From NCBI GenBank assembly GCA_052327205.1, contig CM126212.1:187798001-187862000 (forward strand): 64,000 nucleotides of DNA, read 5' to 3'. Numbering within the stretch: position 1 is the first letter of the stretch; each line of letters opens with the position of its first letter. The notes below the pieces were generated by a model, which was not told where the DNA came from, made no database searches, and saw nothing but the letters and a program-made list of their open reading frames with translations. The position numbers were made by a program, and so were the translations under genes. This DNA is from Somniosus microcephalus (Eukaryota). Below, in pieces: positions 10,301-19,300 of this stretch.

Positions 10301-13300
10301 GGACTGTTTATTCTATTCACAGTCGACTCACACTACAGAAAGGGAGACTGAGCTAGTGTAGACTGGATAGTAAAATACAAATCCCTCTACTTTGCTTTTG
10401 ACTGAAGAACCTGGTAATGTTGTTTGTCTGGGCTGTTGCTTCCTTTCGTGAAAGGATTAGGTCGGCCTCTTTCCCTCTTATTATGGATTATTGGCTGGTG
10501 TAAATATTCAGGAACTATCCATATTGTTTAGCCTGAAGTTGTGAAATAATAAGGAAATGCTTATTTGTGCAGGACTGAATTTGTTCTCTTTTATAAAACA
10601 CACTTCATCCAAAACTTAAGCCATATGGGAAATAGCCTGGGAAAAGCAACCTTCTCGTAGTTTTAATGATATGTTCCCTGCTTACTAAGTGGAAGAGGTC
10701 AAAAAGTGGCACTGAGTATTTAACGCAAAGATATTTGAATTGTGCAATGAAGATTTTTTTTTAAACCTTCAGTTTGTCATCTTTAAAATCCATGAACAAA
10801 TGTAAGGCAAAAATGCAGATTTTCAGTTTTTACATTTTTTGCTCTTTTTAATTCAATGAAGATGAAATACACCCTTTAGATAGCTTAGATGCAAAATTTT
10901 ATATTCACAGTTTACAGCAGCACAAAGTATGCTTAAAGCACTTCTGTTAGTGCTATCATAATAGTATGACAATGTTCCAGTAGTGTGACTGCAGGTTAGC
11001 CTCTGCAGCAAGGATGATTTCTTACGGTGTAAAACTGGGAAGGAATGGCACCGTCAATAGAAAAGAAAGTTATTTTATGTCAGCATGCTTTTCTCATCAG
11101 AAAATGGGCCAAACTTACAGCCCTGCCACCCAGCGGGCCAGGGCACTAGCGGCCTGAAAGTGGAGCGTAGTAGCTTACCGCCAAGTTGACCATTGCCGTT
11201 TTGCTGGGGTCCTTTGAGTAGGTGGCACAAAGAAAACACAAAGAGCTGATTTAAATATTTAAATCAGGGTCTTATGATGGCAATAGGATTCTGATGCCAG
11301 TTCTGGACTGCACTGGGCACGACGTATCAGCTGGAGGCTGGGCCAACGAGGAGACGAAAGGTAAGTTCGGCTATATCTTTGTGGAGTCAGGAGGAGCAGG
11401 AATGCTCCTCCAGACTTCATAAAACCAGGCTGGGCCGCTGGTGTTCTCCCTTCCCCCCACCCCCTCCTTCCCCAATATCAGGCTAGTATATTACCCCCAT
11501 TCCCATGTGCCCCAACAAAATTAGGGCTCAAGGGATTGGGGGTAATATACTAGCATGGATTGAGGATTGGTTAATGGACAGAAAACAGAGAGTAGGAATA
11601 AGCGGGTCATTTTCGAGTTGGCAGGCTGTAATTAATGGGGTACCGCAAGGATCAGTGCTTGGGCCTCAGCTATTCACAATTTATATCAATGATTTGGATA
11701 AGGGGACCAAATATAATGGGCTTGATTTTAACTCAGCCGTCAGGCGGGCTTTGAGGCATGTGGAGAGTTAAAATCGCAAAACCTGGGGGTCGGGACTGTA
11801 GTGTATGTAACCGTCTACCTTTAAGAGACTATTGTATGTAACCGTTCACCTTTAAGAGAACTATTTTAGGTGTGGCACTACTTGTTTGGCTTCTGTATAC
11901 GGTAATACCGACGGTGACCACACCGGTATATAAGTGCTGTGGCATGATTTATAGGGCAGATTCGCCCTGACCTTCGAATAGTAAAGTCCTGTTTGTTTGT
12001 TACTCCTGAAGTCTGTGTCGTTATTAACTGCACAACCCACAGACTTTACAGTGGCGATGAGTCCGATCGTACCCTGTGGCAAGACTACCAAAGCAACTAA
12101 AGAGCGTCGAAGAGAGGCAACCGCCCTCGTCGTTCTGCTGGGAGAAAACACGAGGCTGCAGCAATAGAAAGGAGGAAGACTTTAGCAACAAAAGCTTCCA
12201 TCAGCAACAGGCACTGACTGTCCCTTCTGCCACGGTGCGGAGTGAGCCGATCAGCAGGAAGCAAGGCGGCCACGGAGACTGTGAGTAAGGGAAAGTGTAA
12301 AGAATATCCGGAGGATAAGGGCTGTGCACTCGACCACGGTCGAGGGGGAAAGGAGCTGGACGGAAAGTCGGGTCCAACGGCGTCGTGAGACAGCCAGACC
12401 GCGATCGGCGGGAAAGCCGGGCAGCGACCGAAGCCACGAAGCGCTGAGATCGGGAGCGTAGGCGCGGGAAGAGAGAAACTCAGCCGCAGCCGGGGAGGGA
12501 AGCACCGGACTGCGAGAGGGCTGGGAGGCGAATGGGAACCGAGCGTGCGGGAGAAACAGAGCCGACCAAGGGAGACTGTGCGAGAGCCAGTCCAGCGGCG
12601 AACTGTTCTCCGCCAACGGGAGTACCCAGCGCTGGTAGAGCCGAGCGGGCGGGAGAGAGAGAGACAGAGCCGAGCAAGGGGAGAGAGACTGCGCGAGAGC
12701 CAGTCCAGCGGCTGAACTGTTCTCCGTCAACGGGGTGTACCCAGAGCTGGTAGAGCCGTGCGAGCGGGAGAGAGAGACAGAGCCGAGTAAGGGGAACTGT
12801 GCGAGAGCCAGCCCAGCGGCTGAACCTGTCCGCTGTGGGGAAAGCGTACCCCTCCCACCAGGGAAGAAACGCGGGAAGCCGCCATTAGGCGGAGAAGACG
12901 ACAGACGCGGGAAACCGCCATTTTCACGGGAAAAGCCGCCATCTTAGAAAAAAAAAGAAATAATAATTTAAAGAAATACTTGTGTTGTTCCCAAAGAGAG
13001 GAAGATGCCTAAGCGTGGTAACATCAACGATTTTAATTCCGAGATAGAAGACTGGGCCACGTACGTGGAACGCATTGAGATCTATTGTGAGGCCAATAAA
13101 ATAGAAGAAGATGACAAAGCTATAACCTTGCTGAACTCGATGGGCGCAAAGACATACGGGCTCTTGAAGCATCTACTAGCACCAGCTAAACCGGCGGATC
13201 AGACTTTCGATGATATTGTGGCTGTCCTGAAGGACCACTTGAACCCTACACCGTTGATGTTGGCTGAACGATTCAAATTCTATGCGAGAACGCAACGGAA

Positions 13301-16300
13301 AGACGAAAGCAACGCAGAATACTTGGTCGAACTGCGTAGACTAGCGAAATACTGCCAGTTTGGAGGGAATCTGACAGAGGCATTGCGAGACAAGTTCGTG
13401 TGCGGGTTGGCAAAGGAAGGAACGCAAAAGCGACTACTCGAAGAGAACGACCTTACACTTGACAGGGCTGTCCTTATTGCAGCATCGCACGAAGCCGCAG
13501 CGAAGGGAACTGCGGAAATGCAGCTAAAGACAGCAGCACTAAGTGTGGATCAAATTACCTCGACAACAACAAAATGCTATCGTTGTGGGAAGACAACACA
13601 CGACCAGAACCAATGCTGGTTTAAGAACCAGGAATGTAGGAAATGTGGCAAACTGGGTCACATAGCTAAGGTATGCCGGTCAGGGAAGAAGACCAACAAC
13701 CAAAGGACCAACAACCAAAGGAAGCCATCACAGGAAAGGTACAACAAGGTACACAAGGTGGCTGAGAAGAGTTCAGACGAACAGAATTCAGACTCAGACC
13801 CAAACGGCCAGGAGCTGGGTAGTCTGAGAATTCACAATGTGAGTAAGGAAGCTGACCTACAAACTATCTGGGTCATGCTGAAAATAGCTGGAATCCAAGT
13901 GAAAATGGAGTTGGACACTGGATCAGCTCTATCAGTCATAAATCGAAGGGATTACCACTGGCTATTCTCACATATACCCTTAAGAGATACCAAGTTCGTA
14001 TTGCAGACATACACGGGGCATAAAGTATACCCCATGGGAAAGATAAGAGTCAAAGTGAGAGATAGGGGTAAAGAACACCCAAGAATGAACTTATACGTAC
14101 TACATGAGGGAGGACCACCACTTCTATGACGGGAGTGGATCAAGAAAATAGACATGGAATGGCACTATCTAAAAGCCACAACGAGTGAGGACTCGGTGCA
14201 GACAAGCAGCTCAGATTCTGAAACGGATGACGATAAGACCAACCCAAATATGAAAGACAAGGCTGAAATGGACTTGCCGACGAAGGTTGGAAAAACGAAG
14301 GCATGCATAAAGGCTTATGCTCCAGAGAAGAACAAAGTTTCAGAACAGAACTCCACCGAACAACGACAACAATTAGAACAATTGAGTTACCGTCTCGTAC
14401 AAGAGATGAAAACAATGAAAAAGTTCTATGACACCGAATGGGAGAATCTGGAAAGACAACAGAAGCAGCTAGCTCAAGCAGAGAGCGACCATAGAGCCAT
14501 CGTGACCAATTACCGATCACATCTCCCTTATGATGTTCAGGAGTTAGAATATTTGCATGATCTAGAGATACAGCATAAAGGCAAACCACGCTACACTGAG
14601 GATTTTGTTCTGCAATTGGAGATGGAGCTAGTGCAGGCAAGGTTAAGAGAAGCTGAATCGCAGTGTGCACTTAAAGAGATGCAGAAAAAAATCTTGGACA
14701 TAGAAAAGAGAAACGCTTCTTTACCTGATGAGAATAATGTGGCCATGTTGCAAGAGGAGCTTATAGGGGCGAAACTGAAAGAAGCTAAGCAAGGGATGTT
14801 GGAACTTGAAACACAGAACCAAATCAGCAGTAACCAGCTATGTCGAGCAGAGAAGGAGTGCAATGGTCTACAGGAGAAGGTGCAATATCTCTCAGCCCAG
14901 AATAAGGGACTACTCACTCAGTTAAATGAAAGTAAAGGGAAAATGGCTGAGATAGACTGCAAGAATAAAGAAGATTTGATGGCAGTGAGACTTCGAGAGG
15001 CAGATAGCATAGCAGCCTTGGCTGAACTCCAACAGAAAATTGCGAAAGAAGCAAATGAAGAGGAATCTTCAGGAAGCCAGGATTTTATTCCAGTTCTTCT
15101 CTATGACTCCTTACAAGCAGAGTGTGAGAAGTTGAAAGAACAGTATGAACAGGCCCAGGCTACAATTCTGGAGGGGGTTAACTCGGCAACCTCCGAAAAG
15201 CTAGTTTCAGTAGAAGCATATGAGCAACTAAAGGTTGAACATGAGCAAGAAGTCCAAAGGCTGCAGGAAATTCTTGATGAGCTCAAGGCCAAGACAGACT
15301 CATCGGTAGAAGTTCCATCCATAGAGGAGAAATTAGAGGTGAAAGACATGGCAGAACATGAAAGGCAAGATGTCCAAGAACTCAGAAAATTATTGAAGGA
15401 AACCCAAGACAAATATGAGGCGGCAATGACCGAGGTTCAACAACTTGAAGAACAGATTCAACTGGGAACCCGTTCAGCGGAAGAAAAGGAAACTGTAAGA
15501 AACACAGAGACTGTAAGACATGAGCTAGAGAGCATCATGGCACAAGAGCTAGATAGCATCATGGCACAACTTCTCCGAGCGCTGAAAGCCAAAGTCCAAG
15601 AGGAAAAGAAGGTAAAAGCATTGGAGGAAAAGGTGGATGAAATGGAGAAGACTCTGATTCACAGTGTTCCCGCGGAAGAGTTAACGGTCAGCCAACTCCT
15701 TCATATGTTGAGGGACAAGACTCTGCAATGGGAACAATCTGAACACGAGCTTCAATCTTCAGAGGGAAGGAGTTCGGAGCTCTCAAAAGTTACGGATATA
15801 GCTGAGGGTGCAACACGGATTTTACTGGGATGCCAAAAGTACGCTGAATCACGTCAATGGGAACAACAGACTGTTGAAACAGATGCTCCAGTAGAAGGAT
15901 TGAATAGCCCGATCAATCAATCTCCGATGGAAGGGGAAGTATTGAAGTCATTAGTGAAGGATTTGCAGGAAACCCAGGAAGAGTGGGATGAATATGAACA
16001 CATAAAGAAGTCTCTTCAGGAAAGATGTCTAGGGAGGGAACAACAGTCGGCTAACGTCCAGTTGGGTAAGGAAGAAGTAGCAGGTCCTCTCGCTAGACTA
16101 GCTCAGGATGACACCGAATATTACCATGACCTGTTGAGTGACACGGAATATTACGAGGACTTGGTCTGCCCAGCTTGTGATGAAAACTCCCAAAGTGCAG
16201 AAATCAGGATGAAGCACTTAAAGTCTAAAGAACATAGGGAGATGGTGGCGCTACAGCTGGCAGCTGATAAGGGAGCCCCGAGAGTCTCCAAGAAGCAAAA

Positions 16301-19300
16301 AAGGAAAAGACGAAGCCGAAGCTGATAACCATCTAAATCATTATTACTTCTAATGGGAAAGTAGGGAAAAATTACGAAGGCAGTCCAGCTGTTTGTAAAA
16401 GTCAGCACTGCTGGTTCAGCAGGACGGAAGTTCATGCTGTTACGTCAAGGGAAAGACTATTGGATGAGTCACGCTAGCAATGTGAACCGGCTACACCACA
16501 GAGATATTGTTCGGACCGAGTCAAGACCAGAGACTGAATCTGTGAACTGTTCCCACAGAGACTGAACCTGTGAACTGTTTTCCGCAGAGACTATATCTGT
16601 AAATTGTTTTACATGAAGTTGAATATATGTTATGTTTAATGGGGAATACGTATGTTGTAAGCTAAAAAGGGAGGATTGTAGTGTATGTAACCGTCTACCT
16701 TTAAGAGACTATTGTATGTAACCGTTCACCTTTAAGAGAACTATTTTAGGTGTGGCACTACTTGTTTGGCTTCTGTATACGGTAATACCGACGGTGACCA
16801 CACCGGTATATAAGTGCTGTGGCATGATTTATAGGGCAGATTCGCCCTGACCTTCGAATAGTAAAGTCCTGTTTGTTTGTTACCCCTGAAGTCTGTGTCG
16901 TTATTAACTGCACAACCCACAGACTTTACAGGGACCCCCCCCCGCCTGGTTCCCAACGCCTAGCCATTTTAACCCAGGTGTATCTGATGGTCCTGAATCA
17001 GTCCCGCCTGTCTTTAGGGCCCTTAAACAGCACTCATTGGCCTTTATAATCCCATTTTAACAGGCCCTTGCCTGTTTAACCCTTTTCCCACGTAAAACAT
17101 GCCTGGTGGGGATCATGCCTGTGAAACCTGGCGTGAACACTATTGGCTTGCTGACTATCAGCTGTAGGTCAACCATTAAAGAGGAGATTTGATCAGTCAT
17201 CATTTGTAGGTGGCAGGACTTGTTGTTTCAGGTCTGGGGCAAATTTACCAGGCTTAACCACACCTGTGGAAGGTTGGAGCCTCACACACTTCTCCAGTGT
17301 GACCTCCTGCGAAACCCCTCTTGCCTGCCTCACTCAGCGCTTCCTCAACTGAGGCATCTACCAGAAGCATGGGAGGCCTTTTTTTCCTTCCCTTCTTGGC
17401 ATTAGAGGACCTCCAGCCCCATTCGCGAAATGACACACGCCACAACTACAGAAGTTGCCATCAGAATTTTTATGCAAAACAAACAACTGATGGCATTTTT
17501 ACAGAATACACAACATTTCACCCAAGTGACTACCCTTGTGACTATTTGTGCTTTATTTTCCTCTTACGCATGCTCCTACGTAGTGGTTCCCCTGTGGCTT
17601 CAGCAGATGTGGAGGCCCCTTGCTCACTTTCCTGCTGCTCCTGTCTCGACACCTTTGGCGGGCGTCCTCTGGGGTGGCGAGGCTGTGAGGGCTCGTCAGC
17701 AGTCTGCTGCTCCTGCGGCTGTGCAGGAGTTGAGACGTCTATCTCAGTTGGGTATGGAGTTCGGCGGGGCTCTGACCGAGGGCTCGGCAGTGGCATGGAA
17801 GTGTGAGCGCTTGGAGAGGAGCCCCCACTTCCTTGAGGGCTGCCACCAACCTCCCTCTCATGGGTCAGGTCCCCCTCAGCACCTGCAAGTGGCTTGAGAG
17901 CACCTTGCTGCACATCAGGGGGGTCATGGGGACCCGTATCGGCAATGGCAGTCCTACTCAGAAGGACTTCCATGAAGGTCTGGTTTCTCTGTTCAATAGA
18001 TGCCCATCGCTCCTCAAGAGATGTCATTCTATTCTGAACACTCACCATGTTTTCCATACCCTGGCGACTAACCTCCTCCATGGCCGTAGCCCTCCTCTCC
18101 TCTACCGTAGCCAGTCTTACCACGGAGGCAGCAATCATTTCCACATAGGTAGCCATCCTTTCCGTGTTGATGTGTTCATGCGCCAATGACTCCACAAAGG
18201 CTCTGCTCATGTTTGCTATGGACTCCTCCATTCGCTCCACACTCGCAGCGACCCTAGAGACAAAACCTGCCAGAGACTCCTGCATCTGTGCCTGGACCCA
18301 GAGGCAGAGGGTCGACATGCAGCTGAGCCGAGCTGGCAGAGTCCTGCGCCCTCCGACGAGGACTCTCCACTGCTGTCCCTGTCTCCACAATCTGCTGATG
18401 CTCACTTGTGAGCTGTGATACACCAGATGACAACTCTACTCTATGTCCCGAAGGTCCCACCGAGGTGTGAGTGTCTGCGCTGGTGCTGGGTGCACTTATT
18501 TCTGCTGACGCTGCGCCCTTAGGGGTTGCAGATTCCTCTGAGGAGTCTAGCTGCTCAGGCTCTTCCTCCTGCACACTGGGGACGGGGACTCTCGATGGTC
18601 CTGTGGGGGAGTCAAGGAAAAAGTTAGAGATGTGATGCCAAGGTTACATGCACATTGCATTTTGCAGATGATCATAAGTCCATATGATGTAGCTTCAGAA
18701 TCATTATCAGCGACTCATGCAATGCCAGTGAGAGAGATGGAAAACTATTCTGTCACCAGCTTGTGGGGATGCACCTGTCTCTCCTTCCCCAACTCCCACA
18801 TCTCTGTCAGCCCCGACAATCTCCAGGACGCCTTCCTCCCAGAGGGTGAGCTGGGCTAATGAGGGCGGCCCTCCTCCTGTCCTGGCACGCTCTCTCCTGT
18901 TGTGAGCTCTCTTTTCCTGCAATGAGGGAGACAAGTGGAGGTTGAGTGAGAATGAAGGAGTGCAGAGATTGCATAGCATAGATACTTAGAAGGAGACAAA
19001 GATGGAGTGAGGTTGCAAGACCAAGGGCCCTCCCTGTGTGTTGTCAGTTGTGTTCAAAGCATCAGACTGATAGGGAGTGTGAGGGCTGCATGGTCAAATA
19101 GTTAGGTGAATGTGAGCATAGAGAGAGAGGGAATGGGTAAGGGTGCATGGATGTGAGTGTCAAGTGGGATGTGGAGGAAGAGATTGCTAAAGCTGAGTGC
19201 TGGTGAGGAAACTTCATACAGTACTTACTTTTCCAGTGCGATGAAGGTCATGGAATCTTTTCCTGCACTGCATCCAGGTGCGCCGTGTGAGCCCCAAGGA

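What the first reader, a model, noticed from the sequence alone, without database searches (positions are those of the whole stretch)
11797..16930. Young gypsy LTR element whose pol is replaced by an open, in-frame mosaic of several host mRNAs
Seen: complete cis architecture (near-identical LTRs, 5-bp TSD, PBS, PPT), Gag with two CCHC knuckles, a DTG protease, and no RT, RNase H or integrase core. A 723-codon stop-free coiled-coil ORF occupies the pol position in the gag frame. From recall, its segments resemble at least four unrelated vertebrate genes (STK10, ANKRD24, EVI5, DNAJC21), joined in frame without introns. Established: LTR elements capture co-packaged mRNA by RT template switching, as in oncogene-transducing retroviruses. 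Inference: serial capture of mostly coiled-coil segments, with the frame kept through every junction and through divergence from the donors, suggests selection for a Gag-PR-cargo protein in a helper-dependent family. I know of no description of this family but cannot exclude one.
Basis: partly seen in the sequence, partly recalled or inferred. Interest (0 to 1): 0.92.

Follow-up and report, generated by a model that had tools for sequence, protein, structure and literature searches.

The report
Shark retrotransposon that collects circular RNAs
A jumping gene in a shark genome lost its copying enzyme and, step by step, filled the gap with in-frame pieces of host genes, three of them joined back-to-front exactly as in circular RNAs, which points to how circular RNAs get copied into genomes.

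Summary
The element is real: a young, non-autonomous gypsy element (254-bp LTRs, one mismatch; 5-bp TSD) whose RT-RNaseH-integrase is replaced by spliced host pieces. New here: three donors are in permuted exon order, joined exactly donor-site to upstream acceptor-site (6 of 6 ends on host GT/AG boundaries). These are back-splice junctions, so the captured RNAs were most likely circles. EVI5 and STK10 were each taken as exactly one turn. The genome holds the autonomous parent, the earlier stages and thousands of copies (1,235 carry the EVI5 junction). Gag-protease is under purifying selection. This copy has a private stop before the cargo. Best reading: RT jumps onto co-packaged circRNAs, filtered by a need for an open frame. 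Precedents exist for each ingredient (circRNA pseudogenes, LTR chimeric retrocopies, IAP 1-delta-1); I found no description of serial in-frame circRNA capture by an amplifying family.

The parts
11792..11796 (+). 5-bp target-site duplication, left copy
11797..12050 (+). 5' LTR, 254 bp, TG...CA
   Evidence: 83% identical to the LTR of autonomous copy L068
12052..12062 (+). primer-binding-site-like motif; tRNA not identified
12063..13004 (+). 5' leader with about 110-nt imperfect repeats
   Evidence: families D2, D4, D10
13005..14182 (+). gag (two CCHC knuckles) plus aspartic protease, broken in this copy by a private stop at 14127-14129
   Evidence: dN/dS 0.15-0.40 between subfamilies
14183..14470 (+). 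STK10 pieces, remnant of a one-turn STK10 circle after internal deletions
   Evidence: whole circle in L047 and L049
14466..14540 (+). ANKRD24-like: last 9 nt of one exon spliced to a late 66-nt exon
14540..14541 (+). ANKRD24 back-splice junction (late exon end joined to the start of an exon 11.5 kb upstream in the host)
14541..14557 (+). first 17 nt of the ANKRD24-like large exon
14558..15043 (+). EVI5: one turn of a 678-nt five-exon circle, opened inside its last exon, less a 192-nt in-frame deletion
14573..14574 (+). EVI5 back-splice junction (exon end joined to an exon start 45 kb upstream in the host)
   Evidence: 1,235 copies
15044..15680 (+). ANKRD24-like large exon, resuming at the very next host base
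   Evidence: empty site in DNA contigs
15681..16075 (+). OPTN, four exons in normal order, with a short compensated frameshift
16076..16325 (+). C2H2 (jaz-type) zinc finger and basic tail, ending at the stop; donor DNAJC21-like by recall only
16326..16663 (+). 3' untranslated region: decayed STK10 circle end (16396-16468) and integrase C-terminal tail remnants (16491-16581)
16664..16675 (+). polypurine tract
16677..16930 (+). 3' LTR
16931..16935 (+). target-site duplication, right copy

Best explanation
A non-autonomous gypsy lineage that replaced RT-RNaseH-integrase with host RNA by repeated RT template switches, three times onto back-spliced circular RNAs. It is kept because its own Gag-protease is useful and its reading frame must stay open to near the 3' end. 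Shown: (1) the autonomous parent and the breakpoint; (2) first cargo = one turn of an STK10 circle; (3) OPTN, a zinc-finger piece, an ANKRD24 back-splice piece and finally one turn of an EVI5 circle were added later; (4) purifying selection on gag-protease, near-neutral drift of the coiled-coil cargo, frame kept. Inferred: the circles were co-packaged in the particle. RT entered a circle, ran once round, met its own starting point and left by a short shared word, which explains the exact single turn. Circles of internal phase-0 exons are favoured because they bring no stop codon, UTR or poly(A) signal. The open frame serves the RNA, through decay avoidance or translation-coupled packaging in cis, rather than a cargo function. 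RT and integrase come in trans from the parent family.
For: Back-splice geometry: 6 of 6 permuted ends lie on host GT or AG boundaries, while none of the 7 switch or deletion joints whose two donors I could align has a splice site at both sides. Shark isoforms mark both EVI5 boundaries independently. One turn: EVI5 is opened and ANKRD24 is split with no base lost or repeated; STK10 spans 1,245 nt between two copies of the 11-nt word it shares with pol. Parent: 4 of 4 loci run on from that word into RT; L068 has a 1,334-codon frame with RT, RNase H, integrase and 99% identical LTRs. Stages: L047/L049, L057/L058/L060, L066/L067 and a pre-EVI5 contig; identity to host rises in the order of capture (STK10 81-90%, OPTN 74-91%, ANKRD24 93-94%, EVI5 86-100%). 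Selection. Sense-strand RNA across the element in run X15.
Against: The host circles were not seen as RNA: reads cannot be told from element transcripts. OPTN is colinear, so not every donor shows a back-splice junction. The reason for the open frame is inferred, not tested. The EVI5 joints lie one base off the 4-nt shared word, which a plain in-register switch does not predict. The zinc-finger tail looks constrained (17 to 23, p 4e-4; 13 to 13, p 0.04 without CpG sites), so frame-only selection may not cover the whole cargo. The zinc finger's 3' joint is out of frame with STK10 in the window lineage and in L066. Cargo dN/dS intervals exclude 1 at kappa 1 in 3 of 3 pairs. 3 of 5 diverged copies aligned carry a frameshift.
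Confidence: 0.72

Rival explanations
1. The cargo is selected as a protein: a Gag-fused or protease-released coiled-coil scaffold that helps particle assembly, trafficking or escape from host control.
For: Frame open across subfamilies; cargo dN/dS below 1 at kappa 1 (0.51-0.65); zinc finger constrained; sense RNA abundant; all donors give coiled coils.
Against: Coiled-coil part 157:60, no lower than private mutations at 100:56; dN/dS 0.69-0.88 at kappa 3 while empirical kappa is about 4.8; off-frame OPTN stretch; cargo swapped wholesale between stages; kinase, TBC and ankyrin domains never captured in the copies seen.
Confidence: 0.2
2. The permuted order comes from linear RNAs with repeated exons (trans-splicing) or from a tandem duplication in the host gene, not from circles.
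For: Such RNAs would carry the same junction and one period would look like one turn; sequence alone cannot separate them. PMC4897178 warns that non-colinear junctions can arise otherwise.
Against: It would be needed three times in three genes. Boundary patterns gave one host hit each for four of five boundaries searched; one search gave two further hits on other contigs, not examined.
Confidence: 0.08
3. No selection on the frame: shared words between coding sequences tend to be in frame, and the family is too young to have decayed.
For: Most switch words are in frame; the closest copies are about 99% alike; PMC5131818 explains in-frame young retrocopies by youth.
Against: Subfamilies differ by 125-186 cargo substitutions with open frames, where 10 of 166 private cargo mutations are stops. 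Coding indels are net multiples of three in 4 of 4 and 6 of 6 places, against 1 of 5 and 0 of 3 in the 3' UTR. The in-register EVI5 joint would meet a stop within three codons, and the amplified form is the off-register one. The two compared copies were picked as open, which weakens the count.
Confidence: 0.1
4. Circles were first copied to DNA (a LINE-made circRNA pseudogene or a circular cDNA) and entered the element by DNA recombination.
For: The loss-free EVI5 insertion looks like a reciprocal crossover with a circle.
Against: No free-standing copy of these junctions was seen: the 38 of 38 loci tested carry all four joints together. Short-word joints are the LTR RT signature described in PMC5131818. 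I did not search for solo pseudogenes genome-wide.
Confidence: 0.08

Closest known systems
circRNA-derived pseudogenes, e.g. mouse circRFWD2 (PMC4897178)
   Same: Non-colinear exon junction in the genome, no poly(A), many copies (33 with the junction), LTR sequence nearby.
   Different: There one circle per locus, no coding role reported and the mechanism called mysterious. Here three circles in series, in frame with gag-protease, with breakpoints, parent, intermediates and over a thousand copies.
LTR-mediated chimeric retrocopies in animals and maize Bs1 (PMC5131818)
   Same: Host RNA between the two halves of an LTR element, short shared words at the joints, several parental genes, sense co-transcription.
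   Different: Linear mRNA pieces (the word 'circular' does not occur in that paper); Bs1 has 1-5 copies. Here permuted donors, a retained gag-protease under selection and thousands of copies.
Mouse IAP 1-delta-1 (as described in PMC7411935)
   Same: Non-autonomous, makes an in-frame Gag fusion said to aid retrotransposition in cis, needs a helper.
   Different: The fusion partner is its own pol remnant, not host RNA; it is an ERV, not a gypsy element.
Oncogene-transducing retroviruses (recalled)
   Same: Gag-host fusion replacing pol, helper dependence, capture by RT switching.
   Different: No env seen; germ-line amplification; cargo lacks the donors' catalytic domains and drifts near neutrally.

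Membership tests
Ty3/gypsy LTR retrotransposon, non-autonomous | Two LTRs (TG...CA), TSD, PBS, PPT | tested here: met
Ty3/gypsy LTR retrotransposon, non-autonomous | Parent with domain order protease, RT, RNase H, integrase | tested here: met
   L068: RT 499-639, RNase H 702-833, integrase 943-1103; gag and LTR homologous to the window
Ty3/gypsy LTR retrotransposon, non-autonomous | Own RT and integrase absent | tested here: met
Mag lineage of gypsy | RT phylogeny within Mag | not tested
Mag lineage of gypsy | PBS for tRNA-Ser or tRNA-Leu (PMC3286476) | tested here: inconclusive
   tRNA-like 3' ends match, but ARAGORN found no gene at the one locus fetched
circRNA-derived retrocopy | Exon-exon junction in reversed order at true splice sites | tested here: met
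   three genes, 6 of 6 ends
circRNA-derived retrocopy | No poly(A) tail on the captured piece | tested here: met
circRNA-derived retrocopy | Parent circle detected as RNase R-resistant RNA | not testable with these tools
   cannot separate host circles from element transcripts
LTR-mediated chimeric retrocopy | Host RNA between discontinuous halves of an LTR element | tested here: met
LTR-mediated chimeric retrocopy | Short shared words at fusion points | tested here: met
   11, 7, 7, 7 and 4 nt; two joints undetermined
LTR-mediated chimeric retrocopy | Sense co-transcription with the element | tested here: met
   run X15; X16 is not clearly stranded
Transducing retrovirus | Retroviral lineage with env or env-bearing helper | tested here: not met
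   parent L068 is one gag-pol frame ending near the 3' LTR
IAP 1-delta-1-like cis-acting fusion | Translation of the fusion needed in cis for mobility | not testable with these tools
   only indirect:

The most novel reading that the evidence does not exclude
Gypsy particles in this shark preferentially package and copy host circRNAs, so the lineage is a running exon-shuffling machine fed by circles. It has built abundantly transcribed Gag-fusion proteins from five host genes, and its captured zinc finger has become a selected accessory module of the element.
Probability: 0.3. Interest if true: 0.95.

Novelty: new variant of a known kind. Interest (0 to 1): 0.86.

Why it matters
PMC4897178 left the mechanism of circRNA retrotransposition open. 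Here the parent element, the breakpoints, the intermediates and an exact one-turn signature sit in one genome and point to LTR reverse transcriptase jumping onto circles. The elements are also a fossil record of germ-line circRNAs in a shark. They separate selection for an open frame from selection on protein sequence in a non-autonomous element. They have spread host coding exons to thousands of loci, which will disturb gene annotation and circRNA calling in these genomes.

Tried and rejected
One colinear donor: rejected, four genes on four contigs. Low-complexity noise: rejected by exon-level DNA identity. Known retroelement ORF: no Pfam or PDB hit for the cargo. Assembly artefact: rejected; 38 of 38 loci carry all four joints and contigs of two other organism labels cover the element. 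DNAJC21 host gene: the Pfam ZHD hit read as DNAJC2-like by my recall, a motif search found nothing, ESM Atlas gave only hits under 0.9, PDB only E 0.1; left open. The 1.84-billion library gave gag-protease relatives at mostly 31-58% identity; of the 8 of 150 hits I read, none was a Gag-cargo fusion. One search (first EVI5 boundary pattern) found nothing; the shorter pattern did. One search was too loose to isolate the parent. The 'P(0 stops)' line is not valid, because that tally holds 5 stop-type variants, from two broken copies or single-base scoring. Human circEVI5 (PMC8342614) is 339 nt from three exons, not the same circle, so it is no direct support. Earlier findings of the scan: none. 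Whether the OPTN piece starts near an exon start was left unchecked.
Full report
1. Observation. The element spans 11797-16930, with 254-bp LTRs one mismatch apart, a 5-bp TSD, a PBS-like motif and a PPT. Gag with two knuckles and an aspartic protease start at 13005; Pfam scores are below cut-off and no RT, RNase H or integrase is hit. A stop at 14127-14129 separates them from the 731-codon frame 14130-16325. The stop is private: it is in 1 of the 30 closest copies, and 13 of those 30 are open from 13005 to 16325 (these 30 are the best of 40 scored among 4,613 candidates). The genome is 6.4 Gb and the best protein hits are from sharks.

2. Donors. Protein searches gave ANKRD24-like and EVI5, OPTN and STK10. 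I located the four host genes in G000 and mapped the cargo to their exons. Introns are absent and ordinary splice joints are exact. The last 250 nt encode a jaz-type C2H2 finger (E 0.043 in the window, 7e-9 in L067). It resembles DNAJC21 by my recall only; no host gene was found.

3. Permuted order. ANKRD24: a late exon ending at a GT donor is joined at 14540/14541 to the first base of an exon 11.5 kb upstream, after its AG acceptor. EVI5: the end of the fifth captured exon is joined at 14573/14574 to the start of the first, 45 kb upstream; shark isoforms mark both boundaries. STK10, in sister copies L047 and L049: residues 373-739 are followed by 286-388, again exon end to upstream exon start. 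That is 6 of 6 ends on splice sites. By my rough estimate (1 in 50 per end, not a tool result) chance is near 1e-10. None of the 7 switch or deletion joints with both donors aligned has splice sites on both sides. Four of five boundary patterns gave one host hit each; one search gave two extra hits, not examined.

4. Exactly one turn. The EVI5 circle is 678 nt, five phase-0 exons. The insert starts at the base after the one on which it ends, and ANKRD24 resumes at the next host base. The empty site exists: a 234-nt contig of run X9 joins 14557 to 15044 and includes STK10 sequence. Both EVI5 joints lie one base off a shared 4-nt word; the in-register product would meet a stop within three codons (read). 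The STK10 circle is 1,245 nt between two copies of an 11-nt word that pol and STK10 share.

5. Parent and history. Four loci keep the pol continuation at that word, and 4 of 4 run into RT. L068 is a full element with a 1,334-codon frame and 99% identical LTRs, 83% like the window's. Stages found: STK10 only, in frame into the integrase tail (L047, L049); STK10 plus colinear OPTN (L057, L058, L060); plus the zinc finger (L066, L067); plus ANKRD24 (contig); plus EVI5 (window). The order of the zinc-finger and ANKRD24 steps is inferred. Whole-genome pattern counts: 3,166 with the pol-side joint word, 509 with the less-changed finger motif, 7,712 with the window's finger motif at up to 2 mismatches against 3 control hits, 1,235 with the EVI5 junction at up to 1 mismatch against 0.

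6. Selection. Among the window, L035 and L037, gag-protease dN/dS is 0.15-0.31 (kappa 1) or 0.19-0.40 (kappa 3); the whole cargo is 0.51-0.65 or 0.69-0.88; kappa from private mutations is about 4.8. Across five lineages, non-synonymous to synonymous variants are 43:58 in gag-protease, 157:60 in the coiled-coil cargo (p 5e-7) and 17:23 in the finger (p 4e-4; 13:13, p 0.04 without CpG sites). Private mutations give 100:56 in the cargo. Against the host the window cargo gives 0.46 or 0.65, which includes selection on the host branch. Coding indels are net multiples of three in 4 of 4 and 6 of 6 places for L037 and L035, against 1 of 5 and 0 of 3 in the 3' UTR; the other 3 of 5 copies aligned each have a frameshift. 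25 of 57 copies listed have open frames over 1,100 codons, in several recurring lengths. A 20-nt and a 1-nt deletion put 12 OPTN codons off-frame in both the window and L037. The finger's 3' joint is off-frame with STK10 in the window lineage and L066, in frame in L067. So the frame is kept, the coiled-coil sequence mostly is not, and the finger may be.

7. Expression. In run X15, 29,134 of 16,654,260 records lay on the element, strongly from one strand as expected for sense RNA, across gag and cargo alike; X16 is not clearly stranded. Only 2,734 of these are 99% alike or more, so most come from other subfamilies or a related species. Translation is not shown.

8. Mechanism. Shown: parent, breakpoints, back-splice geometry, single turns, stages, selection pattern. 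Inferred from established LTR replication: co-packaging, RT switches at short words, exit after one turn, and help in trans. Inferred with less support: the open frame protects the RNA or couples translation to packaging, as reported second-hand for IAP 1-delta-1. Rivals are a functional cargo protein (0.2), no selection (0.1), linear exon repeats (0.08) and a DNA route (0.08); they concern different steps and are not exclusive.

9. Literature. PMC4897178: main text read to the acknowledgments; circRNA pseudogenes, LTR-enriched flanks, mechanism open. PMC5131818: abstract and six passages. PMC7411935: three passages; the primary IAP paper was not held. PMC3286476 and PMC8342614: passages. PMC5538554: no hits for my terms. 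PMC13414913: listing only. Nine searches listed no paper on this family or on serial circRNA capture by an LTR element, judged from titles and abstract starts. Subscription journals, Repbase, Dfam and all supplements were not seen; the family may be named there, and the supplements of PMC4897178 and PMC5131818 may hold closer cases.

10. Verdict. Real, and richer than reported. It works like an LTR-mediated chimeric retrocopy crossed with a circRNA-derived pseudogene and meets the testable features of both. New variant of a known kind; interest 0.86.

Noticed in passing
window 11487-11771: Fragment that looks like a CR1-type LINE reverse transcriptase (recalled); the LTR element sits in a short GC-rich repeat just after it.
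   Followed up: no
window 14541-14573: EVI5 went in 17 nt after the ANKRD24 back-splice junction and was opened 16 nt before its own. The near symmetry is unexplained.
   Followed up: partly
L058:3728-3741, L061:6320-6334: The OPTN piece of the earlier stage ends 4 nt short of an exon end; its start was not checked, so a fourth circle is not excluded.
   Followed up: partly
L057, L058, L060, L067 (OPTN part): These stages keep a motif that I recall as the OPTN LC3-interacting region; the window lineage and L066 have lost it.
   Followed up: no
window 16290-16325; ends of the L057 and L058 frames: Several stages end in a basic tail made from different sequences.
   Followed up: no
L067:4320-4500: The zinc-finger piece has GC3 0.62, higher than the other cargo segments of the window (0.43-0.50); its host gene was not found.
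   Followed up: partly
L031/L032 and L010/L028: Two pairs of copies lie about 5 kb apart in the same orientation, probably tandem insertions.
   Followed up: no
L034, L036: Copies with the 3' cargo deleted (L034) or interrupted by an inverted relative (L036).
   Followed up: no
G000:C12:46253634 and C37:33095570: Two further exact matches to the STK10 acceptor pattern away from the host gene.
   Followed up: no
G000: 1,030 tRNA-like 3' ends complementary to the PBS, of two kinds; the one locus fetched is not an ARAGORN tRNA and may be a SINE.
   Followed up: partly
P0262: A 212-aa EVI5-like database protein that starts at the same acceptor exon as the captured circle and leaves after the same donor exon.
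   Followed up: no
window 16528-16608: Three tandem 28-29-nt copies of the end of the integrase tail in the 3' UTR.
   Followed up: partly
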